Shown here: positions 2,118 to 60,087 of the stretch, piece after piece | Position numbering within the stretch: the first letter of the stretch is position 1 | Layout of the letters: each line of letters starts with the position of its first letter | Origin: Girardia tigrina | Taxonomy: Eukaryota | Reading direction: 5' to 3' | NCBI GenBank assembly: GCA_001938485.1 | Contig: MQRK01217413.1 | Coordinates: 5,043 to 68,731 of the forward strand | Length of the DNA: 63,689 nucleotides | Notes under the pieces: generated by a model | Databases searched by the model: none | What the model was told of the DNA's origin: nothing | Seen by the model: only the letters and a program-made list of their open reading frames with translations | Program-made: the position numbers and the translations under genes

Positions 2118-4262
2118 TTCCCCCTTTTCTTTAAAATTTTTGAACTTTTCGACATTTCTTACTATTTGTTTTTTCATATCCTCCAGTTTATCCTCCAGTT
2201 TAAAACTCCTCTCATGAATTTTTTCTATGATGGTGTATGGTCCCTAATATCTGTCATCATCTTTATTTCTTATCTCTTTTTTTTACCCACACCTGATCTC
2301 CGATATTGAAATTTCGTCGTGTTTTTTCCGTCTGGATACTAGATGTTTTCGTCTGACGTGTTCATTTTATTGCTATACCACTTCAGCCTATCTATTTTTC
2401 TATTTAAAATGACTTCAGCCGGACTTCTTCCAATTGTTTTCTGGTGTGTTGTATTTAATGTGAATTCTACCTCTGGGAGCATATCAGCCAAACTCCTCTC
2501 CTTTCTTTCTTTTAAACTTGCTTGGATATACTCTCGTATCGTTCAGAATTGTCTTTCCACTATACTATTGGTGTTATGATGGTACGGACTAGAGAACACT
2601 AACTGATTACCTTGTTTTATCATTTATTCTTATACCTTCTGTGATTCAAAACTTTTCCAACAATCCACATGTATTTCCTTTGGAGCACCAAATTTTAATA
2701 TCCATTTTTTTCAAAATTGTTTGCATAATCGTCTGTTCATCTTGTCGTTTGATGGCTGTTAAAATGATATATTTGCTAAAATGATCAATCATGGCCATTA
2801 TATATTTTCTTTTCTTATTGTTTCTCTCCATGGGCCACATATATCGATGTATACTTTCTCAAACGGTTCAGATGATGTTATCTTGATTGTCTCTTCTTTA
2901 GTCTTCGACGTATCTGTTTTTGTTTGTTGACATTCTATAAAGTTCCAACTACTTCTTTCACTGTTTTGCTTTCCTCTTCCATATCAAATTTATCCTTTAA
3001 ATAATGGTAAACTTTTTCAGCTTCTGCATGACATAACAATCTGTGTGTCTGTGTGATTAATTCACTTCTTTTCTCTTTGGGTATCCATTCTCTGTGTTCG
3101 TCTTTTGCCTGACTTCTTGTTGTAACTGCTAATAATCGCGTTTTAAGTCCGTTTGATTTTGCGTCTTTATGTTGTATTTGACACTGGGTACATGTTTCAC
3201 ATTTGCTTCGAGACAACATATCTGCATTTCCATGTAATTCACCTTTTCTGTATACCATCTCTATATCCAAACTACTGAGATAATTAATCCATGCCTGGAA
3301 CTGGGCTGTTATTGGTTTTTTTGTATGTAACATAAAAGTGAGGGCTTTATGATCTGTCCTTATTTTAAATCTGTTCCCATATAAATAATGATTGAAATGT
3401 TGACAGAAATAATAAATGGCCAAAAGTTCTTTCCTAGTTATACAGTATCCTTTTTCATGAGCTCCCATCGAATGCGAGCTATAAGCTAATACATGTTCTC
3501 TTCCCGATTCGCCAACTTGTGATAGTACTGCTCATATACAATCAAAACTGGAATTCGTATCCAAACTAAACTCTTTATTGAAGTTCGGGAATGCTAAAAT
3601 TGGGGCTGTTATGGGGGATTTCTTTTGTATCGTTAAAAGCTAGTTCACATGAGTTTGTCCATACTAGTTTATCTTTATTCGATCCGCATAACCATTCTAA
3701 CGCCCTGGCCGTTTTGGAGTACCCATTTATGAATCGCCTATAGTAGCTACATATTCCCAGAAAACTTCTCAAATTCTTCATGCAGTTTGGTCTCTAGAAT
3801 CCTTCAATTGCTTTAATTTTATCTGGATCCGTGTGAATACCTTCTATATTTACTACATGTCCTAAGAATTTTACCTTATCCCTTAAAAATTAGCATTTAG
3901 ATGGTTTTATTCTTAAAATAGCTTTCTCAATTTGTTAGAAAACTTCCCCCAATACTTTATAATGTTCCTCTATGGTCTGAGTTGCTATCAAAATATCATC
4001 CATATATATTGAGGTTCCTTTCTTAATTGGTTGTAATACTTTTGTCATCAACTCCTAAAATGTCCCTGGCGCTGAAGCTATACCAAACGGCATTCTAAGG
4101 AAACAAAATTGACCACTTTTTGTAGAGAATGCTGTTTTTTCTTGCGATTCCTTTTCTAATTCTACCTGATAATATGCATTTCCTAGATCAATTGTGCTGA
4201 AATATTTTGTACCGTGTAGTTTGTCCATTAGTTCTTCCATATTTGGCATCGGGAAGGCTTGT
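2118..4262 (-). mobile_element. Ty3/Gypsy pol remnant A (RT-RNase H-integrase), pseudogenised
   Basis: RT motifs (FSTIDLGNAYYQV, KTAFST, RMPFGIASAPGTF), RNase H (RKELLA, TDHKAL, ADMLSR) and integrase (IDHFSKY) in Gypsy order, with many stops and frameshifts. Confidence 0.92.
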
Positions 4263-6502: not shown

Positions 6503-7802
6503 AGGTGTGTCCACTAAAAAAAGTGCAAAAGTTTTAAAACCATCATAACTTTTTAATTAGACCTTCAAATTGACGGAAATCTGAACAAAGACTAGATCAT
6601 AATAACACAATAACTATTTTATCATATCAAACTATTAAGGCCATAAGAGTTAGCAAGCATTATTCTTTGTCTAAAATTTGCAAATAATGTCCTAAAATAT
6701 AAATTGTTAAACTGCTTTGCTTTAGTTTTGATTCTGCCAATCAACTGGTCTTCACAATCGGCAGTCCAACCCTTTTCATACACCTCCTTTAAATGAGTCC
6801 AAAACTTTTCAATTGGGCGTATTTGGGGAGCACAAGGTGGATTCAAATCATTTTTGACAAATGGAATTTGTTGTCCTCTAAGCACTTCAGACTTGCTTTG
6901 GTGTAGTGACAAGAAGCAAGATCTGGCCAGAAGATGAAGTGACCAGCTGGGTATTTCTCATTCAGATAAGGAAGCAAACGCNTCGTTAAGCACTCGGAGA
7001 TATAAATATCCGAATTAGAAGCTACAGATTTCCATTTCCTGATGTACAGGTCTGAAATGCCTCGTCTGGAAACAGTTGCCCAAACCACAAATTTTATTGT
7101 GAATTTCTCTCGAAATTTAAGGCGAATATTATCAGGTACATCACCGAACTTCTTTTGGTCCACATAATAACCCGATGTCATTGCTCCGGTGAGTGTAAAA
7201 TACGACTCATCATCAATTACAAAGTCGGTTTTGGTCTTTTCCACAACAATTTTAGCGAGATTTTGCAACCTGGCTTTCTGGCGAATAATCTGCGTCGGAG
7301 TAACCTTTGGGGCTTCTTTCCTCTTTCGAAACACTATGTTATTAGTCTTGAACATCTTATGCACGTAAGACTTTGAAACATTCATTTCTCTACCTAACTT
7401 TCTCACACTTTGTCCAACAGTCAAAGTTGCACGCTTCAGAAGTCTCTTCCTTTTGTCTGACGTCATTTTAACAGGTTTCCTTCCACTTCCTACTTTTCTT
7501 TCAATGCTGCCGGTCTTCTCATAGCGTTGTATTATTGCATATATACCTCTTCTGGAAAAATGAATGCCAGTAAACTTTTACTGTGCGTTTTGAAAAAATT
7601 GATTATATCTTCATGCCGTTTTGAAATCATTATAATTGTCTCTAAAATAAAACATATTAAACCAAAAATTTTAAATACCTGCTTTACTATTTCTAACCTA
7701 TTAAAACAAATATTTAAATTCCAAATTTACGAAATTAAATAATATTACATTAAAAAGTTATGATGGTTTTTAAACTTGTGCACTTTTTTAGTGGACACAC
7801 CT
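6503..7802 (-). mobile_element. DD37E (TRT/ITmD37E) Tc1-mariner superfamily transposon, full length, frameshifted
   Basis: TIRs AGGTGTGTCCACTAAAAAA with TA duplication. Transposase motifs IDDESYF, WPDLASCHY and PQIRPIE, with 37 residues between the second D and E after correcting one frameshift. Confidence 0.92.
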
Positions 7803-15307: not shown

Positions 15308-15351
15308 GATACAATATATTTCGACGGAATAACCGTCATCATCAGGCGATT
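15308..15351 (-). ncRNA. Minimal type I hammerhead ribozyme motif (core intact)
   Basis: Minus strand reads AUCGC-CUGAUGA-U-GACGG uuauu CCGUC-GAAA-UAUA-UU-GUAU. Confidence 0.75.
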
Positions 15352-15483
15352 CTGATTGTTGCTGTTAAGCTTATATTTGTTAAAATGATGATTACGTAAT
15401 CAATTTGTGTGAAACAGTAATTACATAGTCATAATTACATTGTGTAATCAATTCTAATTTATAAGCATAACAGCTACAATCAA

Positions 15484-15527
15484 AATCGCCTGATGGTGAC
15501 GGATATTCCGTCAAAATATATTGCATC
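15484..15527 (+). ncRNA. Hammerhead motif, core mutated
   Basis: AUCGC-CUGAUGg-U-GACGG auauu CCGUC-aAAA-UAUA-UU-GCAU, with two core substitutions. Confidence 0.6.
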
Positions 15528-15982: not shown

Positions 15983-16544
15983 GTGATTTACTTTATTAAC
16001 TTATAATAATTATTTTTATAAAGCATTTTTATTATATGAAATTATAAAATATTGTTAAAAGCCAGAAGACAACTTAAAAATAAGAGTAAGATGAAACACA
16101 ACAATTAAATGATTTTCATTACCGAAAGACCTGAAGTTTAGGTTGAAATATATGCACCTTAAATATATGTCACTTTACTCTGTGCTTCAAAAAGTTAATG
16201 AAAAAAGTTATGAAAAATATATTAAAGGATCATTCGGATTAGAATTTACAATCATATTAAAAAGTAATAGTATTTTTAAGAAAAATGTATGATTATAAGA
16301 AATCAAAATTGTTAAAAGAATTATTTTTCTTTAATTTTTTTAAATATTATTTTTAAATTTTTTACATTTATGTTGTTATTAATTCATATTAAAAATAATT
16401 TTATATTTTTAATTTGATTAATTTAATTTTTATATTCCAAACAATAAGAAAATATGATACGTGGTGCGCCCAATAAGTCATTTATGCTCATATTACAGTT
16501 ACACATTTTTTTATGCTCAGCAATATCACTCTTTCCCCCTTTTT

Positions 16545-16625
16545 GACTGTGTTCTTGGACTCGTTTGCAGAGATGACGGGTAGTCTCTCCGATCTATATG
16601 GCATTGCACCCATTACATGTGTATT
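16545..16625 (-). mobile_element. Penelope-like element GIY-YIG fragment
   Basis: CNGCNAI*IGETTRHLCKRVQEH. Confidence 0.7.
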
Positions 16626-17472
16626 GATAAACAATGTCCGAAAAGAAACCTAAAGGAGTATGTGATTTATTGAAAAACATATTCTCAACTTTAAATGATA
16701 GAGATATAATTTTAAATTTAAAATATTATTTGTTGATTTCAAAATCGAATTCTTTAGGTGTTTAAAACCCTCAGAGTAAGGTAAGCTTAAAGTATACCCA
16801 GGTCTAAAGCAGCTTTCAATGTTTAAATTATTCGTCTATGAACAACTGAATGACGTTCTGACATTTTTTTCTAACATTTCAACAATTTTTATCAAAGGAA
16901 ATGTCTTAATGAGTTTACAAGAGTCTATGAAAAGAAAGCCACTAGATCTGACGGATCTACTCTTGTTTTTATGCCGTCTACTTTGTTTAATACTCGAAGT
17001 CACCTCAGAGAACAAGAAACCATCCTCATTATGGAGAAAATTGAAGATTGGCAACGAAGAAGAAGTTGACTTCTATTAACTCCGGTTGTCGAAGAACTGG
17101 AAAAAATTTTAATCAAAAAAAATAATTTTAGTTTTTTGTGTTGTGGGGGCCGCATTTCTATGACTCCTCCCAAGAATCCTATATATTTGACATTTAAAAC
17201 TGGTCAAGGTAATTTGATAAAGGTTATTCTTTTGCACATTTTTAGTCATGAAAGACAAGATTTCATTTAAATTCATTCAAAATTTATCAGAAATATTTTT
17301 AAAGTAACTTCTCTGAAAATTGAAATATCTTCAAAACTTAAGCTTTATTCTTATATTTCTGTTTAGAAGAAATCTTTTAGAAATAATATAAAAAAATTGA
17401 AATATATTTTTTAATAATTATTCATAATGTTCTTTTTATTTGTATTTCATTTTTTAATGCAATGTAATCTAG

Positions 17473-21560: not shown

Positions 21561-22295
21561 TTTCAAAGACGAAAATTCAGCTCACCCGTCATACATGATG
21601 GGTGTTTTACTTGTCATATAATAATTTTATTAGTTTATTTAGGATGTCATTACATCATTTATATATAGATGACAGATCCCATGAACGAATAATGAGATTT
21701 TTAATCATACTAAGACGATATTTAGGGCTTACAGAAACTGTTTGGTTTTGTATTGCAACCCTTGTCAGTTTTGTTTCTGTAAATATTAGTGTTATGAAAA
21801 CCATTTTATCGCCATCAATAAATCTAGAAAACACAATGTATTATCATTCTCAGTCTCCGTGGTAAATTTTAAATTTGGATGAAGAGAATTGATATAATTT
21901 AAAAACGGAGAAATGCCATTTCATTTTTAAAAATCAAAAATGTCATCGACATATCGCTTATTTGTCCGAGGTTTTTCTGACCAGCAAAATTATTTATTTT
22001 ATCTTCAACACTCGATATAAATATATAAGCCAAAATTTGAGCTTATGATTAATCCATAGCTACACCATCCACTTGTTTTTGTACCAGTCATTATTGCCAT
22101 AATTTAAACGGTTTGTTTGATCTGTTTTTATAAATTCAGAAGATAACTTGAGTTATAGAATTCATGTTTATAGATGTTGAAATAAACACATGATAATTAT
22201 TTATTTTTGTATTACCCATTATAAATAAATGATATTAAGTATTCATTATTAACCACGTTATCTTGTGATTCATTTATCAGGAAAATGGCTAATTA

Positions 22296-26500: not shown

Positions 26501-26756
26501 TCCAAATAGAAAAGTATAGTATTATTGGGTTTTAATTTTAAATAATTACTTTTAAACAAAAATCTTTAATCTTTATTATTTAAATCTTTATTCTTTAAGC
26601 TTTAATCTGACTCTACTTAATCAGGAGGTTCTTATTACATAAATATATAAAGGAATGAAAACAAATTCTTTTATAAAACTTTATTTTCAATAACACAAAA
26701 TAACACACAGCTTTATTTTGTTCAAATCAATAGTGTCAATAAACGTATTCACAAAC

Positions 26757-29475
26757 TTAATCATGCAACCAGAAGCGAGATACAAAGGCTGAGTAGAAAA
26801 AGGAAAAGAGCACCAATCAATCAGCGGTGGTTGGATGGGCACCTAGACGAACTTAAGATGATGATCAGAGAAAAATGGGCAAGACGTTCAGAATTNNNAA
26901 AAGACAGAAACGACACAACGTACTCGAGGTGGAAGTCAAGCAGACTTCTTATTCCGAGAAAGATTCGACAATGGAAACGGGAAAGAGCAGAAGCTCTTGG
27001 AGAGCAAATTGAAAAGAGCCTTGCAAACGACGGAGAAGGGAAACTGTAAGAACTCATGACAGAGTTACGTGTTCTATGTAACACACAATCGAAAGAGAAC
27101 ACACTGTGCGCTCTCTCTACTCCGATAGGAAACGAAGAACTATCTGCACATTTCAACAACCTCTTTCGAGCTAATTCTCATTTAGACGAAAGAATTGATA
27201 TCGCAGGGGAGACATCCAACCTGGACACTCTGGATCTACCCCTCACATTTGAAGAACTGGAGGTGGCAGAGAGGCAATTGAAGAGCGGTACAGCAGCAGG
27301 CTCAGATGGACTTATTCCTGAAGTATATAAATGGGGAGGTACGAATATTATCTCCAAACTGGAAATATGCTTCAGGAATATATGGGACGGCGTGGAAGAG
27401 TTCCCACCAAGTTGGAGAGAGGCCAGAGTGGTCATTCACTTCAAAGGGAAAGGATCTCGTAAAGACCCGAATAACTATAGAGGTATTTTCCTACTAGACG
27501 TAGGCGGTATAGTCTTTGCGAGATTTATTGCTAATCGTATTACTCCAATAATTGAAGCCTCACTGGACGAATGACAATTTGGATTCCGGACAGGCAGAGA
27601 AACGCAACAAGCTATCAGCATCTTGAGAAAGCTACAGGAAGAAGCAAGATACAAAATATCCACATTTTTGTAATCTTTATAGATCTGGAGAAAGCATTCG
27701 ACAGCGTCCCCCGGGAGTCTCTCTGGAGCTTTTAAAGAAACTAGGGATAAGGGGGAGAATGCTTGAAGTTATCAAAGCCTTTCATGAGGTATTTAAAGGT
27801 TCAATAGGGGATAAAACCTTCAATATGAACAAAGGAGTTAGACAAGGTTGTGTTTTAGGTCCGCTCCTATTCAATATCGTCTTCGATACAGTCCTGAAAC
27901 GAGCGATATTGAATGGTCTCTCAGGAGTAGCAAAGATGACTACTGAAGATGGAAGCTGCCTCGAGATCAACAGACTGGCTTACGCGGACGATCTCTGTCT
28001 GATAGACACCGACTGGAACAATCTTATCAGAAACCTTATTCTACTGAATGACTCATTTGTAGATTTAGGACTAAAGATCAATATCAATAAGAACAAAGTT
28101 ATGAACCTAAACGGAGATACCAAAGTTCTCACCGCCGGACACCAGCTTGAGACTGGTATTGAGTGGGTATCCAAATTCGTCTATTTGGGTTCCACAATCT
28201 CCTCAAATGCCACCGCTGAAGATGAGATAAGAGAAAGAATTCAAAAGGGTACCAGGAAGATCAGGGACCTCAAACCGGTCCTGAGGAGCTCCAAACTCTC
28301 TTTACGGAACAAGAAGAAGATTGTCAGCTNNNNNNNNNNNNNNNNNNNNNNNNNNNNNNNNNNNNNNNNNNNNNNNNNNNNNNNNNNNNNNNNNNNNNNN
28401 NNNNNNNNNNNNNNNNNNNNNNNNNNNNNNNNNNNNNNNNNNNNNNNNNNNNNNNNNNNNNNNNNNNNNNNNNNNNNNNNNNGGATATCATTGCAAGCAG
28501 AAGACTTGCCTATCATAGCAGGTTGGACACCTCTGATACACCAAACATTATGAGGTGTGTGTGGAGAGCAACAATGTCAATGGGAAAGAAGATCAGTGGG
28601 ATAAAGAAGCAAGCTATCTCCGAATGCCTCAAAGTGGATATACAGTGACTCTTTGGGGATAGTGCAAAGTATGAAGACTTCATACACCACATTGTCCACA
28701 GAGACCCCACAATAGAAAGAGGGCAATACATCAACTCCTTAATAAGAGAAAGGAAGCAGAACAGAACAAGAGCCGATCTGTCGAAATTACTCAACGAGAG
28801 AGATAAACTCCTTCAATGTACGATAGAAGATTGCTTTAAGGAGTTTGCCGAACAAAAGGAGCTAAATATACATCTCAAGCGGGATCACACGGAATCCACA
28901 GTAAGCATCCCTCTTCAGCTCCCAGAAGATGAAAAACCGTTCAAATGTACCAAATGCAGCAAAGGTTACAAAACGAAAAGATGGTTCACTAGGAATCTGC
29001 GTAAAGATCATCGAATAGAAGCCAGGGAGAATATCAATGAACATCCCACAGAATCATCAGAGCAATCCAACAGAAGAAGCGATAATCCAGACAGAGACGA
29101 AGAACCCACACTTATCCAAACGACCAATTTTCAGCCAGCAACAGTCACCCCGACTATTTCAACGGTGGTGGAGCAAACGACTTATCCCGAAGATACACAT
29201 TTGACTTTTAGGATCGCAGATCCAAATGCGAGGGGAAAGCTCAAATGTCCCTTTCGCGGCTGTACCAAGTCCACCAATACAGCCAAAGGGATGCTCAATT
29301 ATGGTAGCACAATTCATGATTGGTCGTTTGCAACAGGGAAGCCTAAGAAATTTCGGAGACTGAAGCACTCCGTCCCCGTAGGAGGCCTATCGGGAGGCAG
29401 CTAGCACTCTTTAGTTTGGGTGGACCCTCTAAAGAGCCTAGTGGCTCAATACCATTCGAAAGAGATGGGAGGCCC
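26757..29475 (+). mobile_element. 5'-truncated non-LTR retrotransposon (RTE-like) with RT and C-terminal C2H2 fingers
   Basis: Motifs KGKGSRKDPNNYRGI, FIDLEKAFDSV, GVRQGCVLGPLLFN, LAYADD and FVYLGS. Flanked by a 10-bp duplication ATTCACAAAC (26747-26756, 29476-29485). Several stops. Confidence 0.92.
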
Positions 29476-34752: not shown

Positions 34753-35055
34753 TAAAATTTAAAATTTATTAATTGATAATCCAATAATCTTTTATTATTA
34801 TTATACATATTAAGATTTATGTATTTTAAATATTTATATAGAAACCCTGTCAAACATAAATAATGTCTCCTTGAGAAATAAGATTCTATATCTTGTACTT
34901 AATTGCAATAAATCCATGGTTAAGAAATTAAAATAGAAAATAATATGTACAGTTAAGAACATTAAGACAATTTTCATTAGTCAAAAAGTTAAAAAAATGA
35001 TGGCAACTTATTTTTAAAAAAAAAATACTCAATTTGTTAAATAGACATTTATTTT

Positions 35056-35102
35056 TCAAGACAATTAATTTCGACGGTATAACTGTCATCGTCAGGTCTG
35101 AA
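35056..35102 (-). ncRNA. Minimal type I hammerhead ribozyme motif in a PLE 3' end
   Basis: UUCAGAC-CUGACGA-U-GACaG uuaua CCGUC-GAAA-UUAA-UU-GUCUuGAA, ~45 nt downstream of the PLE stop codon. Confidence 0.8.
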
Positions 35103-35376
35103 GAAAAAAATGAATTTTAAATCTGCTTATATAGGCAAGCAGTGATTATGTCATCAATGGATTATTATGTAATCTAAACAGGCTCAATAGGGTTTTCGAG
35201 AGACCCATTTGCACATTAATCTTAGTATCTAAATATCTGATATAAAGTGTTTCACAGGCCATCCTATCCAAATAGTTTTCAAAACGAGAACACAAAATTT
35301 TAAAATCATTTATGTTTATGTTTTCATTCGACTTACAACGTTCTCTGTGTTCTGCAATATTACTCCCACCTACATC

Positions 35377-35958
35377 TAGGGTTGCCAGTTGAAACTTCGA
35401 AGAATACCGGACAAAATTTAAAAATAACACAACAAAATTTTAACTTTCAAATTTTAACAAAATTTCACTTAATAGTTCAAACTCTAAATACCACAAAATT
35501 TATTATTTAAACAAATTTAATATTAAAGTTTTCACTTAATAGTTCAAATTCTAAATACCACAAAATTTATTATTTAAACAAATTTAATATTAAAGTTTTC
35601 ACTTAATAGTTCAAACTCTAAATACCACAAAATTTATTATTTAATTTATCCCTTTATCACCAGCAGAAAACTTTGAATTAATACTTTAATATTTTGTATT
35701 TCGTATTAAACCAAAATAAATTTTTCCATAGCCCACTACGATAAAAAAATTACCATTTAGGAATGTATATTTGTCCTTCAAAACTTTGAGCGACCAAAAA
35801 AATAAAAAAATACGAATATCTCATATTTGAAGATTGTGGAAATAAGCTTCGGGAGAAATACCGTCAAATGTAAGTCCGGTTTTTATAATTTTTTTATACC
35901 GAACAACCAGTTGAATTAACGGACTGGCCGGTTCAAAACCAGACATCTGGCAACCTTA
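35377..35958. mobile_element. hAT MITE inserted in the PLE GIY-YIG region
   Basis: TIR TAGGGTTGCCAG/CTGGCAACCTTA and 8-bp duplication CCTACATC. Internal 67-bp tandem repeat (~2.7 copies, 35464-35644). Confidence 0.92.
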
Positions 35959-36619
35959 CCTACATCCCGATCATGTTCTTTGATTCTCCTACAAAGATGA
36001 CGGGATGTCTCTCCAATGTATGTGGCATTACACCCATTACATGTAAATTTATATACGAGATCCGAACATAATCCAAATGGGGTTGGAGATTTATAACAAA
36101 ATACATTTTGGATTTTATATGTTTGTGATATTATTTTTAAATTAAAGGCATTATTTACGAATTTTAAAATTGAACGTTGAAACTGACCAAATCCCTCTGA
36201 ATATGGAATGCTTAAAACATATTTTAAAGTTGTTGAGTCTTCTTTATCATTTTTAATCGGTTTATTAATTAATTTATCAATTGTTTCTTTGGTCAATTTC
36301 TCAACAATTGATTTTGAATAACAATTTTTATTTAATAATTTAGTTAATTGGTTAATGCTATCACAAATTTTTGTATAAATTGATGATAATGACCAAGATC
36401 GAAAAATTAGTCCCCTAATCATTATATTTGTATCGAGATTCACAAAAACTGTTTGGCGTTGTATATAACATCAGTTTTCTTTCTGTGAATCTCAGTCTCA
36501 TAAGCATCTCTTTTCCTTTCAATCAGTAAATCTAGGAAAGATAATTTACCATTATTCTCTGTTTCTGTTGTACACTTAATATTCGGATACTTAAATTTCT
36601 TGGATACTTAAATTCTTTG

Positions 36620-39580: not shown

Positions 39581-41956
39581 CTGGTGAGCATAATTTTTAA
39601 AACACCTCTAATTTTAGAAATATGAGGATTTCATATTGTTTTATGGTTTATAATATTATTTAGAAGAATGGTAGTATTATAAAATGCGAAAATGAGTAGC
39701 TCGATATTTAAATAAATAATACTGGGTGCAGTGAAAATTGAAAAATACCTGAAATTCAAAAAGAGCACAATTTTTAAAACACCATGTATTTACCATTAAA
39801 ACATCATTTATTGTACAAAGTGTAGTGTATCACTCATATTTTTTTGGCAGGTGAAGCTTGTATGATTTTTTTTACTTATTTGCTTTCGTTAGTGTGCAGA
39901 GCTCTGTTTTTTTATTTTTTGTACATGACGTTTTTTTTTACTTTATTTGTTTTGACTAGTATGCGTTATTTATTTTTTTTATTAGAGTTGGATTTTTTTG
40001 TTTGCTTTTTGTTTTTTTTATTTTCACGGTCACCGATGATATTTTCTTAGGTAATAAACGATAAATGTTATTGCCTATGACAATAATTTGAAATTAAAAA
40101 AACGATCAATAATTAAATTGATTTAAAGAAAAGAAATATAGCTTGTTGGCAATCAAATTTCAAATTACGAATACAATTGGAATTAAAATTGCGGTGGTCA
40201 AAATACTGTGGTCAACCTTCGCAATTATTTGAGTACTTCCAAGTAACTTTGGACCAACAGAAATTAACTTTTGCTCGAGACCAAATTTTTGTCGACGAAT
40301 CAATCTTTCGGTCGATCCTCATTCGGCACCTGAGTACGTTCAAATCGTCAAGTTTAACTCTTCGAGTTCACTGACAGTGACTGTCCGTTCATCGCCATTC
40401 TTATCAGTGACACGATCGTTCGACTTATCTAGATAACATTATTGCCTCGTCACTACTGGTCAGCCGTCTAACGATTCAAATTCCAAGTGTCGAGTATTAT
40501 TAATTTTACCTTATATATATCTCTGTGATATCTATTCTTTCACCCAATCGACTATCCTAAACTGTGATTTAATAGTCTCTGTACTATACCTTTTTGTCCG
40601 ATTGATTAATAGCATTGTTCAATTATAATATTTGTTCGAATAATTGTATTTCTTTTTATTTCTCCTATTTTTATATACGAGGTTACGTAGACGGGTTATT
40701 GGCAATCTTTGACCTACTAGCTCGTTTCCGTAAAACAAAGCACCTCTTTTGTATAAAACTGTACATAAACGTCCTCTAACTGATTTATATAAATCTAACA
40801 CCTTTTGACGTTGGCATCGATTTATTTCATCAATAACATTTTTCAGTTTTTCTCTCAATTTAACTGTATTGATGAATTAAGGACCACCATAAACTTGATC
40901 TGATATTAATTTTCAAATGTCCTCGACAATATTTAGGTCGGGACTCTTAGCTGGCCAATCTAAAATTTGGATTGAGCTGCTCTTCATAAATTCTTTTACT
41001 TTGTAGGACTTATGAACTGAGGAATTGTCTTCCTGTAGCCAAAAATCATCGCCGAAATTCAATTTCAAAATTGGCACAACATTATTTTGCAACATATTTA
41101 TGTAAGCATTTGAGTTAAATTTACCACTAATGACTTTATAGGACAATAAACCGTTTGGTAAAGTCATAAGCCAAACCATTATGCTTTCTCCTCCACATTG
41201 CCTTCTCTGTCTATGTGTTTCTTCGTCTAAATTGAATCGTCACTGAATATCGTTTTCTCCCAAGGGTGATTTTGACGGATCCAATTATTTATCATTTCCA
41301 CACGTTTTTCTTTATGCTTTTTGGTTAAATAAATTTTTGTTGATACCTTTTTATACTTGAAACCAATTCTTTTCATGTGCCGTTGAATTGTCCAAAAGGA
41401 AACATTTAGATCACATTCATTTTTTAATTTTGTTGAATTTAGCCTTTCGCCGTTATTTTTTAATTGGCTAATTTTTCGTTTAATAAGTACTTTACTTCTT
41501 TTATTAATAATAAATTTTCGTCCACGTTTCTTAGGCATTACTTTATTATCATAATAACATAAATTAATTGCAGAATTCCTTGAAATTTTCAAGCCTTTGG
41601 CTATTTCTGCATAAATTAATCCTTCATATTTCCAAGCTCTAGCTAAACTTTTCTCTTCAATTGATCTCATAAATTTTCTAAAATAAATTTATGCCATATA
41701 ATAATAAATAAAATAATATAAACAATTAATTAAATAAACTATCATTACAAAATTTTAAAAAATATGCTCATTTATAAAAAGCGCCATTTCATATTAACTT
41801 GATTGTATTATTTTAACAAGGATTATTAAAATATTACACACTTGACTTTAAATATTACAAATAAATAATATTATTAATACCATAATTACGCGATTAACGG
41901 CATGTGTCCTTTGAAGTTACCAAAATGGCATGTGTTTTAAAAATTATGCTCAGCAG
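39581..41956 (-). mobile_element. Tc1 (DD34E) transposon inserted in a TA tract, interrupted by a solo LTR
   Basis: 25-bp TIRs CTG(G/C)TGAGCATAATTTTTAAAACAC. Motifs IFSD, QEDNSSVH and WPAKSPDLNIVE with 34-residue spacing. Confidence 0.92.
39821..40737 (+). mobile_element. Solo LTR (TGTAGTG-start) inside the Tc1 C-terminus
   Basis: CAAAG-type duplication at both ends. Removal restores the transposase end KRGALYNK*. Confidence 0.75.
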
Positions 41957-49541: not shown

Positions 49542-52500
49542 ATGTTCGCTTTTCTAACATTATTTATTTTGGGGACCTCCTTTACAAATTGTTTTCCGAA
49601 TTATAAGATTCATTCTGTGAATAAAAATGAAGGTCGATCGGAAATTTCCATTGGTGTTATAAAAAATGGCTCTAATTACAAATTTGTTTTACATAAACGT
49701 AATTTATTTAGCGATATTTTATTTTTATATTTTTTTCCTTTTAGACAAATTACGCAGCAATGTTATCGCATCAGCTACGTTCCTTGATCAGATCAACTCC
49801 ACAGGGTAAGGGGATATGGTGGATACATTATTCTGAATTGTTTTTTTGACAATTATATTCTGGATGTTTATATTCAATACTATCTAAATACCATTTTGAG
49901 AAATGATATCCTTAGATTAATATAGAAAAACATAATTTATTTCATTATAGTTTATGTTTACATCAAACGAAATTATTTGTTCATCGATATTAAAATTGTA
50001 CCAGAATTTTGTCACATAACATTCTTCAGACTTTGACATTTAGTTTTAATTTTGATTATATCACTTTCAATTAAAATAAATTTTTCATATATTTACTAAA
50101 ATTGAAAACATTTTTACTTTGAGACTTCATTGACGAGGAAGGTAAAGAATTTGTGAGTTTGTAAAGGAAATATTTAAATTATTTTGGGATTTCTGTAAAA
50201 ATGAAATGATTGAATCAAACATCTTTGATCAAAAATTATATAAACGTAAAATAACTTTTAGAAAAGGGAGCGTAAAATCATTAAAATCGTTTTTTTTATT
50301 TTGGAACAAAATATCGATGCTCAACAGAATCACTAATTATATAATTATTTTTGAAACATTTTAAAATTTTTCTACTAAACAGAACTTTTGAAGATTGATT
50401 CTTAAATATGAGTTTAAAGGTATTGGTAGAAAATCATTAGAAACTGAGTACATTCAAAGATTGTTTACACATTTTTTAATCAAAAATAAAAAATATTTTA
50501 TAATTATATATTATTAACGCTATGCAATATAATATGAACAAAAAGAATTCATTGCATATGAATTAAAATCAAAATGTCGTCAAAATGTCCCCACAGGCCA
50601 TAAACACAATCCTGACATCGCCAGAAAACTGAATCACAAACAACAGTTCATACTTCTACTCGGATTATCCTAGAAGTTTCTCCTATCGAATGACAAAAAT
50701 CATTGAGTTTAACAAGTCATTGTGTATATACCTTGATTTTTTATGAAGCATTACAAATGAAACTCAAGTGGGGTCAGGTGAGTAGATCTTGATTGATATT
50801 TGTCCTCTTCGTGCCACCCAAGTCCCTGAGAACATGTAATCGAGATATTTTATACTTTAAATTATATATATTATCAATAGATAAATACTCTCATATTACA
50901 AAAATATAAACTTATTTTAATAAATAAATAAATATAAAATAAAATAAATATAAAAGAAATAAATAAATATATATATATACCAGATGGTTACTTGGGACCT
51001 GTACCGTTATTTTGAGCAATTCTTTAATCTGCCAACTTCAAACGGTTGGCCCCAGACAGCCTTATATAAATAAAAATAAATAAATAATTATTATAAAATA
51101 CATTAAATAAAAATTAATTTAAAATAAAAAATTCGATAAACCGTTGGATATGTCATTGGATTTAAAACACGGGAATTAGTTTAAACAATTCTCGTTCTAC
51201 CGGTGAAGATCTTGTCGAAAATACAGGAACCCGTAGATCAGAAATTATAACCTAGCTAGGTCTGAAAACAAATCCGCAAATAACATCCAGGTTATAAGAA
51301 ATTATTCTTTGGTTGCCCAAGAACTCTTGATATCCGAACAATAGAATGATTTCTGAAATTATTTATTTAGTCTAAAGTAATTTGTTTTGCCTTTCAAACA
51401 TTCTGAGTAATTATATAGTGTTTCGAGCTCTTTCATAATTTTTGCTGGCAATTTAATAACACATTTAAATACTATATGTCTTATTCATAAAATATATAAA
51501 TGCACAAGACATTTTTGTAAAAATGAAGTTAAGACTTTTTTATATTTATTTTTTACATATAAACACTTTACATCTCTGAAAAGAAGATGAACATTGGAAC
51601 GATAATTACATAATTGATTATGCAATCGCCATTTAACATATTTAAGCTTAACAGCTTCGATCAGAATCGCCTGATGATGACGGATATTCCGTCGAAATAT
51701 ATTTTTATTTAAAATTGGCGTCTTCTAATATTTATTTATTGCTTTTTATTTCTTTCGTTTGACCCGAGCACCTCAAAAAATGTTTTTCAAAAATTATGAA
51801 ATAGCTCAAAAAACCCTATAATAATCATTGTTTATATATTTTCATTATAATATTTTGAATTATTTATTTTAATTTTATCGTTAAAAATAAGTTCCACAGA
51901 CCACATAATTATTATTGATCTGTTAGATTACTTTTATATTATAATTAATTATTGGGACATTTTCACAAGGGTTTATTCATGCTATCAGAGATTAAAAACG
52001 TTAAGAGTAATTATTATATCCAACAATTTAATTAATGGTTACCTTGTCAGACTAGAACAACTGAAACCTTTATAAATAGAAGAATGAATTAGCACTAAAT
52101 TTGTACGACAGGATGACATTTATTGTCATATTAATATCGACAATGAATACAAATTCTTGAACATCATCGCGATGTATAACTTGTGATTAAAGTATTTGTC
52201 GAAAATGTCTAACTTTCTACTTGACCTTTACGGAAAGTAATGACATGTAAAATTGTATAGAATAATTTCGTTTGGTTACTCAATATCTGATTGAATTCGA
52301 AATAAAATTGAAAATAATTACCAGCAAATCGCTGGAATGAATGTATTAATTTGTTTATTTTAAAGATGTAAGTGATTTCTACAAGTAATCAATTTCTTTG
52401 GTATTATCGACCCTACGACAGATCTACCAGTAGTGTTCATAGTGAATGCGACCCTTTCAATTTTATTCTTGACATTAATTCCAAAACAAATGCCTGACCA

Positions 52501-55500
52501 AATCGTCAATCACTGAGACGAAAATGGGAAAATAAATTCCTATGACTACATCATGTCAAGAGAGTTATAATTTTGTTAAACTTCTTCCCGAAGAAATAGT
52601 TGTTGGTTCGAAGTATCAGATTATCTCCATATTTATTTATTAAAGATGACAATAAAAATGCTTGCGCAGAATTTCGAAATCATTTATAATCAAACAAGCA
52701 TTTTAAAAATTAAAAGTCGAAAGCCAATTGAAAATGTTTATTAATTTCGACGGAATAACCGTTATCGCCAGAACAACTATTTTGTTAAAAAAGATATGGG
52801 CTTATATACTGCCAGTAATGATTATGCAATCAATACGTCATCAATAAATAATTTAAAAACCCTCAATAAAGTTGTCGAGAGTGCATTTTGCACGTTAATT
52901 TTAAGATCCAAAGATCTTATATATAACGCTTCACATGTCACTCTCTCCAAGTAATTCTTAAATTGAGTGCACAGAATTTTAAAGTTATGGATGTTTATTT
53001 CCCCTTTGCAATGTTTACTATGTCCAGCAATATTATTTCCACTTTCCTTACGACCGTCTTCCTGGATTCTCTTACAGAGATGACGCAAAGTCTCTCCAAT
53101 GTATGTAAGTGATTTACACCCATTACAGGTAAATGAGATCCAAACACAATCCTAACGGTGTTGAAGATTTTACCATTATGATTGTGATCGCATCTAATTT
53201 ACCAATATATATGTAATGGGTGTAATGCCACATAAATTGGAGAGACTTCACGTCACAAAAGATAAAAAATATAAATGGAAGGTGAATAAAGATGTTAGCA
53301 ACGTATGCTTGAATCTTAAGATTAGTTTTATGTTATCATTTTTGGAAATAAAAATTTATTGAAATTCAACATTTTTAGATGGAGCCATTTGTCCGTCACA
53401 ACTTATGCAGATTTTAAAGATGAAATTCAAGCTTATTATGCAGGGGTTGTTGAAGGTATAAGTACTCGAACTTTAATTGCAGCTCACCTTTCTAATACAT
53501 TTCCAAGTATGAATTTTTAATATTTAAAATTGAAAAATAATTTTAAGAAATAATAATTATTATTATCACTGTTTTTATTATTTAATTTAAACCTATCAAC
53601 ATAAGGAATGTGCTTTTTTTTAATTTTTTATCATTTATAATAGTTTAAGTCGTCGATTTGTTTGTTCACAAATCTTTTATTTTCCATTATTGGATAAAAC
53701 TGGAATTTTGCAAAATTATTCATGTTTTACTACATTTTAAAAATTAATTAAATAATTTACTAAATAATTGATTAATAATTTAATTAAGTTTAAATCAACT
53801 AAATCAATTTTTTTAAAAAACACAAATTTCATTACATTGATGTAATAAATGGATTGTCGCTACAGTGGAGGAATAACATTTTATACAGCATTATTAAAAT
53901 AATCATTATAATGTCATTGTGATAATAATTAATACATGAATATTTATAAAATAAACTACAATATACTGTAAGGTTTCGTTTTATACGGTGGATACGTTCT
54001 ACAGAAAATCGAGTAAAAATGTCGCATTAAAAAGACTTCATTTGTCTCTAAAAAGTATGGATACGTTTCGTAATTTTCTAAAATTGCATAAGACTAAAAC
54101 GAGTTAAAATTAACTTTAAAAACATTAAAAAGTTTGCAGATTATGGTGCTGGCCTCCGGATCAGTATGTGAAGGCAAGCACCTGTTTCTCATGTGAGAAA
54201 TCGCCGGTCGGTGGGGCGATTTGTCCGGTCTAGTGTTGAACAGAATTCAGAGTACCGCTGAGTAACGGTGTCTCGTCCGAATCGCCGCGGCTTCTGTACC
54301 GCATCCCCGTTGCTGTGACCGACGATAAGACTCGATGTGGTGAATTTTTCAATCGGTTCGTCGACATGTGGCCCGAGTGCGTGGTCGGTGAGGTTGTGGG
54401 GATCGTATGAAGCGATGGCGCATGTAATCTGACCGATTGAGGCCGCATCCGCACAGTCCGGCTCGAATAGTTATTCATTATAACTTTAAAATCAATCGTA
54501 AAATCCATTAAAAATTAAGACGAGAATAAAGCGGAGACATGATGTAAATTTAATCAATTCAAAAAAATTGTGTCACCAAATATTATTCAAACAAAAATGT
54601 ATTTTTTATGTTTAATATTCGAGGTCCACACATATATTAAAAGAAATAGGCTGCTTAATAAATTACTTCGAAATTTATATAAAAGTTTAAAATAAAAACG
54701 GACCCTCATACTGATCAGACCCTTTCTGTCTGTTTTCAATTTTTATTAGTACCCAGTCACCTGGTACGAAAATACGTGTAGTCGTTTTCATCATTTGTTT
54801 ATTGTTCTCTCAACGTTTAACTTCTTCTATAACAGATTTATTATCAAGTTCATAATGCCGTGACCCATCTGGTGTCAGTCGCTTTCCGAGAATCACTTCT
54901 GTGGGAATATATTCTATAGTTTTTTTGTATTGAAGCATTTATGCTAAATTCAATTTCCTGAAGTAATTCTACCCAGTTTTGGGATTTTCTGTCTTTCAAT
55001 GTTGCATTATATGAGTCCCGAATCGTCCAAAATTGTCGTTCTATTATTCTATTTGTGCTATAATGATATTGACTGGAAAATTTGATTTGGATTAGTCTGG
55101 CTTTGACAAATTCTAAAAATGATTTCAACTTGAACACCTTCCCACGATCCATATGTATACATGCTGGTGATCCAAATTTGAATATCCACTGATGTTGTAT
55201 TGTACAAATGATGGTTTTTTCATCCTGATTGCTAACTGCTGTTAAACCTACATATCTACTAAAGCTATCGATTATTCCAAATATATATTTCTTTCCATTC
55301 ACTGCCCGTAACGGTCCACACAAATCCATATAAATACCATCGAATGGTCATTTTGAAATTAAATCTATTGTTTCTTCTTTTGTGACTCCCGTATATGTCT
55401 TGGGCGTTTGACAGACTGGAAATTCTCGTACGATGGTTTCGACCTGTTTTGCGAATTCAACTCTCAGAAGGTCTTTCATCGTTTTAATTGGTTTTATTAT

Positions 55501-58500: not shown

Positions 58501-60087
58501 GTCATATGATCACTTTTCATATTGAATTTAAAAGGTTGTCTGTAAAAATGGAGTTTTCAAAATCTAACAGTCGATTTTATACATACCTTGAGTGGAAAAA
58601 TGGAACGACTGCAGCGAAAACCTATAGAAAGTTGTCCAATGCCATACCTGATGATTACCCAACGGTTCTCTGATTTTACCTCAGGCAAGCGGCTATCGTT
58701 GGACAATCTCACCCACGAAGTGGACGTCCTTCAGCAACAACAACTGATGATTTGATTGAAAAAGTTAGGAACATAATTGAGCAGGATGAAAGAATGTCTT
58801 TAAGACACATAAGTGAAATGCTTGATGTCAACAAAGAATCAATAAGAACAATCCTCCATGAAAATTTGAACAGGAAAAAGATTTTGAGCATCTGGGTGCC
58901 TTATCAACTGACTGCTGATCACAATCGACAACGTATTGAATCCTCAAGAAATTTTTTGCAACTTGTGCAACAATATGGGAAGGAATACTTGATGAAACGA
59001 TGGATAACAGTTGATGAAACGTGGATATCATTTTCCCCTACATTATGGAGATCCGACTTACGAGTATGGGTAAGTGGAGATGATCCTCGATAACGTGATG
59101 TTCAAAACAAAAAATTTGGACGAAGAACAATGCTTATTTTGGCATTCACAGCTGATGGTAAGTTTAACATCGATGTAACAAAATCTGGCGACGAGTGAAT
59201 ATGCGAGAAATTCTTTGGCAGCATGATAATGCTCGACCACATTCATCCAAGTTTACCACGGAGTTTTTTCAGAAAAAACATGTTGAATTGATTAAACAAG
59301 CTCCACATTTGCCTGATTTAAATCAGTGTGACAAATGGCTATTCAAATTTTTAAAAGGATCACTAAGAACAACATCATTTGCAAGTGAGGAAGAGGTCTT
59401 ACAAGCGGTCAGTGATATTATGAGGAATCTCTCACGAGAAAAACTTTCACATGAATTTGATAAACTTTTTACACATGCTGAAAATGTTATTTGTTGTAAT
59501 GGTGAATATACTGTTGTGTAGAAATATATATTTGTTGTTTTATATTTATTTTATTAAGACATTAGAAATACAGAGGAGTTACGGAAAAACTTTTTTGCCA
59601 TATTAATATATAACATATTCTAAATCTGATCTATGAAGGGTACCAAACAGATTATTATTATTATTATCATTATTGTTGTTATTAACCCGTCTTATTTATA
59701 AAGTCTTCTTCAACTTGACGGTGATTTATCTGCCCTCAGCGCAATTCTCGGTGGATCAAACTATCATGCAACGTTTCCCGGTCATAAAATAATTGGTGAT
59801 GGAAGCTGCTCCGCATTTATTAAATATATCAAAGGTGACATATATACTTCACATGTCACTTGGAATGGGTACTCTTCGATGTTAAGGATGACAAAAGTTT
59901 ATACTTTTCCATATAGATACAGCTGTAAAATTGTATTTGTATTTCTAATTTAAATTAAAATTTATATTTAAGATAATGAAAGTTCAAGTTCTAAAATTCC
60001 TGCAGAAACATTATCGTTTTCGTCATATCCAGGACAGACATGTTCACTTGATGATTTTTATATTTCATCAACTGGATTAGTAAGAAA

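What the first reader, a model, noticed from the sequence alone, without database searches (positions are those of the whole stretch)
35056..35102. Covarying minimal hammerhead family tied to Penelope 3' ends
Motifs at 35056(-) and 52735(-) both lie ~45 nt after the GIY-YIG stop. Across copies stem I changes but stays paired (AGAC/GUCU, UGUU/AACA, AUcGC/GYAU). Stem III stays palindromic (UUAA or UAUA), stem II is GACGG/CCGUC, and all have an extra U after A9. Predicted sites are AUU or AUA rather than GUC. A palindromic stem III implies dimer-dependent cleavage, as known for PLE hammerheads.
Basis: partly seen in the sequence, partly recalled or inferred. Interest (0 to 1): 0.7.

Follow-up and report, generated by a model that had tools for sequence, protein, structure and literature searches.

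The report
Penelope hammerhead holding the start codon
This is a damaged copy of a known miniature hammerhead RNA motif, present tens of thousands of times in this genome at the ends of Penelope-type jumping genes; it contains the start codon of the element's own gene, so it would likely cut the start off the element's messenger RNA, probably as a pair and with help from the element's protein.

Summary
Real, and a known kind. 35056-35102(-) is a minimal type I hammerhead in the pseudo-LTR of a 5'-truncated Penelope-like element. A relaxed pattern has 37,345 genomic matches against 61 controls. Across 11 subfamilies stem I (21/22 pairs), stem II (32/33) and the stem III palindrome (22/22) covary. 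The extra base, the palindrome, AUH sites and dimer dependence are published (PMC4209133).

Corrections: this copy has GACAG, not GACGG. The 52.7-kb copy has two core mutations. The '45 nt after the stop' is read-through; the family stop is 74-77 nt before C3.

The motif is not only a 3' end. In tandem copies of two subfamilies, A9 + extra U + G10.1 is the AUG that opens the RT-endonuclease frame. A TATA-like box sits about 40 nt upstream, and element ends fall about 80 and 112 nt into the frame. This matches the Anolis Poseidon element, whose hammerhead is protein-assisted (PMC11167929). Cleavage would therefore remove cap and start codon (inferred, untested). The scan has reported the same motif, start-codon overlap and TATA on other DNA of this genome.

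The parts
35059..35099 (-). Minimal type I hammerhead, subfamily A: stem I 35099-35096 / 35062-35059, core CUGACGA 35095-35089, extra U 35088, stem II 35087-35083 / 35077-35073 (one A.C mismatch), GAAA 35072-35069, palindrome AUUAAU 35069-35064, predicted cut between 35063 and 35062
35087..35089 (-). A9-U-G10.1 = AUG; the start codon of the RT-endonuclease ORF in tandem copies of this subfamily; here followed only by the element's tail
35128..35133 (-). TATA-like box (TATATA), 44 nt before the AUG; promoter role inferred
35145..35154 (-). Conserved near-palindromic 10-mer about 20 nt upstream of the TATA-like box; resembles a bZIP-type site (label recalled, not from a call)
   Evidence: 89 of 115 copies of subfamilies A-F, I, J
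35170..35172 (-). Position of the family stop codon (TGA in relatives, TTA here; the frame reads on to a TAA at 35148-35146)
34976..35058 (-). First codons of the next ORF unit plus the roughly 35-nt PLE tail; forms a predicted hairpin whose loop lies near the inner element end
35173..36588 (-). 5'-truncated, broken RT thumb / GIY-YIG endonuclease region of the carrier element
   Evidence: (GIY-YIG E=0.0022, below the curated cut-off)
35377..35958 (.). 582-bp non-coding insertion with terminal inverted repeats and an 8-bp target duplication (35369-35376, 35959-35966) splitting the endonuclease; holds a 67-bp tandem repeat
52735..52775 (-). Decayed hammerhead of subfamily B (A6G, G10.1A, which also destroys the AUG); TATA-like box at 52803-52808
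52705..53170 (-). 5'-truncated subfamily B element (endonuclease end, pseudo-LTR), with a short inverted piece at 53173-53255(+); the lower boundary is approximate
15309..15349 (-). Subfamily F hammerhead, core intact; one arm of an inverted pair
15486..15526 (+). Subfamily F hammerhead, broken (A9G, G12A); other arm of the inverted pair
51667..51707 (+). Subfamily F hammerhead, core intact but 3' strand of stem I missing

Best explanation
The motif is a decayed copy of the minimal hammerhead in the pseudo-LTR of a Penelope-like retrotransposon; in tandem copies it contains the start codon of the element's RT-endonuclease gene, so its predicted cut, likely made as a dimer and likely helped by the element's protein, would remove the cap and start codon from the element's mRNA. 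Shown: family size, covariation, place between the endonuclease stop and the tail, and the in-frame AUG at A9-U-G10.1 in subfamilies A and C. Inferred: transcription starts a few bases before stem I, driven by the TATA-like box about 40 nt before the AUG. The uncut RNA is the mRNA and probably the template. Two motifs (5' and 3' pseudo-LTR of one transcript, or two transcripts) pair through the 6-nt palindrome and exchanged stem I strands. The cut falls 27 nt after the A of the AUG, ending translation and, with the cut in the 3' copy, releasing a unit-length RNA. The window's own copies are passive, mostly broken ends of truncated insertions.
For: 37,345 matches vs 61 controls. Subfamily-level pairing 21/22, 32/33 and 22/22 vs shuffle means 8.1, 19.7 and 11.5. 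Covariation score 0.398 vs 0.169 shuffled and at most 0.183 slid. Loop III palindromic in 173 of 190 distinct copies, in four forms. Endonuclease-like sequence upstream on the same strand in 89 of 146 copies with enough flank (A and B loci were partly chosen by that likeness). Of 30 loci chosen by the ORF's 5' part, 10 have the hammerhead directly upstream on the same strand. All 9 translated start with ATG, and 3 of 9 run without a stop through the conserved N-terminal motif. Subfamily C: 5 of 20 loci, 3 of 5 open. The AUG frame is open to 45 nt past the cut in 93 of 120 GAC-type 33-nt cores vs 0 and 9 for the other frames. The extra base is not U in only 908 of 37,345 matches, whereas the published consensus across species is H. 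TATA-like box at -46..-36 in 81 of 115 copies vs 106 of 2,284 control windows. Element ends at 50-59 nt (17 of 63) and 80-94 nt (29 of 63) past the cut. Anolis PAc has the same geometry: ORF starts at stem II, cut 26 nt downstream, RT start 111-118 nt, cleavage only with protein (PMC11167929).
Against: No cleavage was measured. The double-hammerhead fold is not the lowest-energy dimer in any of 11 subfamilies (for A: -16.4 vs -28.7 kcal/mol), and it is weaker still for the window copies. Subfamily G keeps A9-U-G although its open frame starts at the AUG of loop III (25 of 30 vs 1 of 30), so the start codon is not the only reason for the U. G and H have no TATA-like box (0 of 20, 0 of 7), and H has no endonuclease upstream (0 of 6). 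Full-length homologues from elsewhere do not share the [S/P/T/A]-K at codons 6-7 (no peak among 45 proteins), so the overlap is not general. For PAc, ribozyme mutants did not impair insertion in vitro and no RNA-seq reads ended at the cut site. D. virilis Penelope has a TATA-less internal promoter (PMC2377424). Because the motif is also coding, part of its conservation may be protein-level.
Confidence: 0.7

Rival explanations
1. The ribozyme mainly processes the 3' end or cuts long read-through tandem transcripts into unit-length RNAs that may circularise (the published model). The overlap with the start codon is a by-product of a very compact pseudo-LTR.
For: Proposed in PMC4209133. Palindromes suit pairing of the 5' and 3' copies. 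G keeps the U without using that AUG frame. Homologues elsewhere lack the overlap. Not exclusive of the best explanation.
Against: Element ends lie 50-59 and 80-94 nt past the cut, not at it, so the copied template is uncut at its 3' motif. A cut in the 5' copy necessarily removes the AUG.
Confidence: 0.2
2. The fold is kept as a binding or folding signal for the element's protein (RNA recognition, dimer scaffold, placing of the RT start), and cleavage in the cell is rare or irrelevant.
For: PAc catalytic mutants still insert and no reads end at the cut. The active fold is energetically disfavoured. Contigs of probable RNA runs bridge the predicted cut (records 7, 16, 31; these may be DNA or read-through).
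Against: The catalytic bases, including the non-coding CUGANGA before the AUG, are shared by all 11 subfamilies while stems covary, and position 17 is U, C or A in the family forms. The patterns required these bases, so this is partly circular. PAc does cleave with protein and shows C3/G8 rescue.
Confidence: 0.08
3. The pattern is a conserved protein N-terminus or promoter element that resembles a hammerhead by chance.
For: The motif is coding from A9 onward. Single copies fold no better than shuffles (z -0.83 and 0.03). Rfam has no hit.
Against: Compensatory changes in three helices change the encoded residues between subfamilies, stem I pairs a non-coding with a coding strand, and G, H and J cores of other lengths keep the same architecture.
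Confidence: 0.02

Closest known systems
Minimal hammerheads (min-HHR) of metazoan PLE pseudo-LTRs, in particular the variants with a small palindromic helix III (Drosophila, mosquito, rotifer); Cervera and De la Pena 2014, PMC4209133
   Same: Type I, short stem I with no loop 1, extra base between A9 and G10.1, G10.1-C11.1, palindromic helix III, many consensus families per genome with compensatory changes, mostly single motifs on truncated elements, inverted close pairs. Fig. S3 has the same AUAUAU palindrome with an AUU site in Drosophila rhopaloa and AUA/AUU/AUC sites elsewhere.
   Different: Higher count (37,345 here vs up to about 9,000 stated there, with different descriptors). The extra base is U in 97.6% of matches and forms the start codon, which I did not see in the parts of that paper I read.
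PAc (Poseidon element of Anolis carolinensis) hammerhead; Frangieh et al. 2024 (author name recalled), PMC11167929
   Same: ORF starts at the start of stem II, cut about 26 nt downstream, two element ends that define a 30-40-nt tail, outer end 111-118 nt into the ORF in a stem-loop (vs 45, 61).
   Different: PAc was tested in vitro (protein-assisted cleavage); nothing was tested here. The loop downstream here is U-rich rather than AC-rich. No TATA/initiator arrangement is described in its main text.
Drosophila virilis Penelope promoter; Schostak et al. 2008, PMC2377424
   Same: Promoter and transcription start inside the pseudo-LTR of the upstream unit.
   Different: TATA-less internal promoter with a 75-bp intron; here a TATA-like box lies upstream and no intron separates the motif from the ORF.

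Membership tests
Minimal type I hammerhead of PLEs | Core CUGANGA ... GAAA ... UH | tested here: met
   35095-35063(-) intact; 52.7-kb copy has A6G
Minimal type I hammerhead of PLEs | Extra base between A9 and 10.1; G10.1-C11.1 pair | tested here: met
   U in 186 of 190 distinct copies; G-C in 33 of 34 aligned rows, largely required by the search pattern; broken in the 52.7-kb copy
Minimal type I hammerhead of PLEs | Short or palindromic helix III | tested here: met
   173 of 190 copies; 22 of 22 subfamily pairs
Minimal type I hammerhead of PLEs | Covarying stems I and II across families | tested here: met
   (first two stem I pairs formed in 180 of 199 copies); R-scape itself was not available
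Minimal type I hammerhead of PLEs | Located in the pseudo-LTR of a PLE | tested here: met
   between endonuclease stop and tail, and before the ORF in tandems; not shown for subfamily H
Minimal type I hammerhead of PLEs | Self-cleavage as dimer, weak or protein-assisted | not testable with these tools
   folding energies do not favour the active dimer; contigs cannot show RNA ends
EN+ Penelope-like element | Single ORF with RT followed by a C-terminal GIY-YIG endonuclease with CCHH | tested here: met
   L146 603-aa frame, RVT_1 E=1.1e-6, CxxC-YIG-H-H end; 1,327 homologues; about 830 codons from the AUG by coordinates; window GIY-YIG hit is below the curated cut-off
EN+ Penelope-like element | 5' truncation, partial tandems, inverted copies, 30-40-nt tail | tested here: met
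Penelope/Poseidon clade | RT phylogeny; no Neptune-type zinc finger in the RT-EN linker | tested here: inconclusive
   no such linker seen by eye in the L146 protein; no tree was built
Rfam hammerhead families | Match to a curated covariance model | tested here: not met
   no hammerhead hit at E<=1 in the window
Non-LTR retrozymes | Non-coding tandem monomers bounded by hammerheads | tested here: not met
   carriers of subfamilies A and C are coding PLEs; no tandem monomer array at the window copies

The most novel reading that the evidence does not exclude
In this PLE lineage the hammerhead is a self-limiting translation switch built into the first 40 bases of the mRNA. A TATA-initiator promoter starts the RNA at stem I (which is why stem I is only 2-4 pairs), the ribozyme's extra base is the U of the start codon, and the element's own protein triggers dimer cleavage that decapitates its mRNA. 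A sister lineage (G) appears to have moved its start codon into the stem III palindrome.
Probability: 0.3. Interest if true: 0.6.

Novelty: new member of a known kind. Interest (0 to 1): 0.27.

Why it matters
What hammerheads do in Penelope-like elements is still open (PMC8557442 says so). This genome offers tens of thousands of copies in at least 11 covarying subfamilies with a compact promoter-ribozyme-start codon layout, so the idea that cleavage shuts off translation can be tested with a simple reporter. The motif itself, its palindrome, its AUH sites and its dimer model are published, the start-codon overlap is published for one lizard element, and the window's copies are mostly broken.

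Tried and rejected
Rfam scan: no hammerhead. Single-copy folding is uninformative: z -0.83 and 0.03 for the two named copies, -2.76 for a family-form copy.

RNA evidence: only contigs of runs guessed to be RNA were available. Depth falls after the predicted cut, but it follows genomic copy structure, is confounded by subfamily divergence and has no DNA control, so it is no evidence for cleavage, a start site or expression level.

The test that homologous PLE proteins generally begin with a hammerhead-coded peptide was negative.

Selection on individual copies: in homology-chosen copies, core positions differ from the majority at 0.015 (A, 31 copies) and 0.028 (B, 23 copies) per site, and CpG sites more often (0.04, 0.09). 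The core is fully intact in 26 of 31 and 16 of 23. This looks like ordinary decay; the anchor pattern limits mismatches, so it is only indicative.

A heterodimer of the two named copies fails at stem I. A search meant for subfamily G was mis-aimed and not used, so the G start codon rests on frame openness only; no G tandem was seen. Subfamily H upstream regions matched neither the endonuclease nor the window's LINE frames. The idea that the 582-bp insertion targets this site was rejected: 55 empty sites among fetched loci, filled only in the window's own copy. Lunse et al. 2017 is not held; only its title was seen.

Full report
Observation. On the minus strand, 35099-35059 reads AGAC, CUGACGA, U, GACAG-UUAUA-CCGUC, GAAA, UUAA, U, U, GUCU. 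This is a type I minimal hammerhead with the predicted cut between 35063 and 35062 (site AUU). Stem II has an A.C mismatch; relatives have GACGG. The copy at 52771(-) has CUGGCGA (A6G) and AACGG (G10.1A). Three more copies lie at 15345(-), 15490(+) and 51671(+); the second has A9G and G12A, and the third lacks the 3' strand of stem I. So 2 of 5 window copies keep both core and stem I. Rfam gives no hammerhead hit, and the two named copies fold no better than shuffles, so the case rests on the family.

Family size and covariation. In the own genome (1.43 Gb) a strict pattern has 12,173 matches against 0 for the reversed control. A relaxed pattern fixing only the core, G10.1-C11.1 and A15.1-U16.1 has 37,345 against 61. 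Distinct copies in the fetched loci fall into at least 11 subfamilies (13 of 200 unassigned). Taking one majority form per subfamily, the first two stem I pairs are Watson-Crick in 21 of 22 cases (shuffle mean 8.1), with C-G, U-A, G-C and A-U all used at the closing pair. Stem II pairs 2-4 hold in 32 of 33 (19.7) and the loop III palindrome in 22 of 22 (11.5), as UUAA, UAUA, CAUG or CGCG; none of 20,000 shuffles reached these three values. The third stem I pair holds in only 7 of 11. On a 43-sequence alignment of the 33-nt cores (34 distinct rows; up to six per subfamily for eight subfamilies plus window copies), 92% of cells pair, 7 of 11 pairs change on both sides, and the covariation score is 0.398 against 0.169 shuffled and at most 0.183 slid. 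These controls do not fully remove relatedness, and R-scape was not available.

Carrier element. The named copy ends a 5'-truncated element at about 36588-34976(-), 90-93% identical to locus L146. L146 holds a 603-aa RT plus GIY-YIG frame with 1,327 homologues. The window copy's endonuclease is split by a 582-bp insertion with an 8-bp target duplication. Endonuclease-like sequence lies upstream on the same strand in 89 of 146 copies with enough flank, ending about 75-82 nt before C3 in subfamilies A-F and I; the figures are 4 of 14 for G and 0 of 6 for H (A and B loci were partly selected for this). Inverted flanking copies and two preferred ends, 50-59 nt (17 of 63) and 80-94 nt (29 of 63) past the cut, are the known PLE signatures (PMC8557442, passages).

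The motif holds the start codon. Of 30 loci chosen by the 5' part of the subfamily A ORF, 10 have the hammerhead directly upstream on the same strand. All 9 that I translated begin with ATG at A9-U-G10.1, 3 of 9 run without a stop through the conserved N-terminal cysteine motif, and the rest carry stops or frameshifts. In subfamily A an in-frame stop lies three codons before this ATG (read from the sequence). In subfamily C, about 50% identical in this region, 5 of 20 loci are tandem and 3 of 5 are open. Over all GAC-type 33-nt cores the AUG frame stays open to 45 nt past the cut in 93 of 120 copies, against 0 and 9 for the other frames. Genome-wide the extra base is other than U in 908 of 37,345 matches. 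Against generality: subfamily G keeps the same AUG but its open frame starts at the AUG inside CAUG of loop III (25 of 30; no tandem seen), and 45 full-length homologues show no shared hammerhead-coded start.

Likely promoter. A TATA-like hexamer starts 36-46 nt before the AUG in 81 of 115 copies of subfamilies A-F, I and J, against 106 of 2,284 control windows, while the spacer between representatives is only 29% identical ungapped. A near-palindromic 10-mer lies about 20 nt further upstream in 89 of 115. G (0 of 20) and H (0 of 7) lack both. Initiator-like UCAGU/UUAGU/UCAUU words abut or overlap stem I in B, C, D, E, I and K (the initiator label and the usual 25-31-nt TATA spacing are recalled). 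This would place the transcription start a few bases before C3. It is inference only. Two paper searches found no description of a TATA box next to a PLE hammerhead, and D. virilis Penelope is TATA-less (PMC2377424, abstract and passages).

Mechanism. The uncut RNA from the upstream pseudo-LTR would be the mRNA. Two motifs can form a nested double hammerhead with a 6-bp intermolecular stem III and exchanged stem I strands. That fold is not the lowest-energy dimer in any subfamily (A: -16.4 vs -28.7 kcal/mol; window copy -5.6 vs -22.0), which fits the weak activity reported for minimal motifs and the need for protein in PAc. A cut 27 nt after the A of the AUG removes cap and start codon; together with a cut in the 3' copy it yields a unit-length RNA. 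Since genomic copies end 50-94 nt beyond the cut site, the copied template was uncut at its 3' motif. Public data could not test this: only contigs of probable RNA runs were available; they cover the motif and some bridge the cut.

Comparison. PMC4209133 (read: parts 1-2 of 4 of the text, parts 1-2 of 3 of supplement 2; supplement 1 not available) describes minimal hammerheads in PLE pseudo-LTRs with the extra base, palindromic helix III, covarying families, AUH sites and weak dimer cleavage. PMC11167929 (read: whole main-text section, supplements searched without finding the motif) reports for the Anolis element an ORF starting at stem II, a cut 26 nt downstream, RT starts at 111-118 nt, protein-assisted cleavage, no effect of ribozyme mutants on insertion, and no RNA-seq reads ending at the cut. 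The outer end here, about 107-121 nt from the AUG, matches. PMC7761336 and PMC6765202 (passages) review the dimer model. The bioRxiv preprint 10.64898/2026.07.22.740005 was seen as abstract only. Lunse et al. 2017 could not be read and may hold motifs like these.

Verdict. A real feature and a new member of a known kind; the named copy is slightly damaged and its partner is probably dead. The useful addition is the promoter-ribozyme-start codon layout, published in part for one element. I reached it before consulting earlier notes (note), and other agents of this scan reported it on other pieces of the same genome.

Noticed in passing
window 35377-35958: 582-bp MITE-like insertion with TAGGGTTGCCA-type inverted ends and an 8-bp target duplication (hAT-like, label recalled) inside the endonuclease, with a 67-bp x 2.7 tandem repeat; 55 empty sites in other loci.
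   Followed up: yes
L131, L143, L145, L172-L178 and others (subfamily H, loop III CGCG): Abundant hammerhead subfamily with no endonuclease upstream (0 of 6), no TATA-like box and ends running into (TA)n; carrier not identified.
   Followed up: partly
L071, L121, L130, L135 and others (subfamily G, loop III CAUG): The open frame starts at the AUG inside the stem III palindrome rather than at A9-U-G; endonuclease end lies 128-189 nt upstream; no tandem copy recovered.
   Followed up: partly
window 34997-35033(-) and equivalent positions in subfamilies B-E: A hairpin 25-65 nt past the cut recurs with different arms (UGGC/GCCA in A, B, D; GGAUGA/UCAUCC in C; UGACGA/UCGUCA in E). Its loop lies near the inner element end and its 3' arm in the tail; it may be the RT start stem-loop. 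It is also coding, and covariation was not scored.
   Followed up: partly
window 35145-35154(-), 52821-52830(-), 15391-15400(-): Conserved near-palindromic 10-mer 60-66 nt before the AUG in 89 of 115 copies; could be a host factor site or a site for the element's protein.
   Followed up: partly
L031-L059, L061-L089: Copies change faster at CpG positions of the motif (0.04 in A, 0.09 in B) than at A/T (0.024, 0.015); in B non-CpG G/C is also high (0.076), so general GC-to-AT bias may suffice.
   Followed up: partly
L033, L034, L041 and other subfamily A copies: About half of subfamily A copies have an in-frame AUG three bases after the predicted cut; length variants there differ by 6 nt and keep the frame.
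   Followed up: no
window 16474-16796(-), 21620-22095(-): Further PLE endonuclease and RT remnants (56-59% and 51-58% amino-acid identity to subfamily A); the first lies about 1.1 kb upstream of the 15345(-) motif.
   Followed up: no
window 2938-3531(-), 54853-55347(-), 26651-29404(+), 6846-7577(-), 41230-41688(-), 58674-59090(+): Other transposon remnants by Pfam: LTR-type RNase H and integrase pieces, a LINE-like RT with a C2H2 finger, and Tc1-like helix-turn-helix pieces.
   Followed up: no
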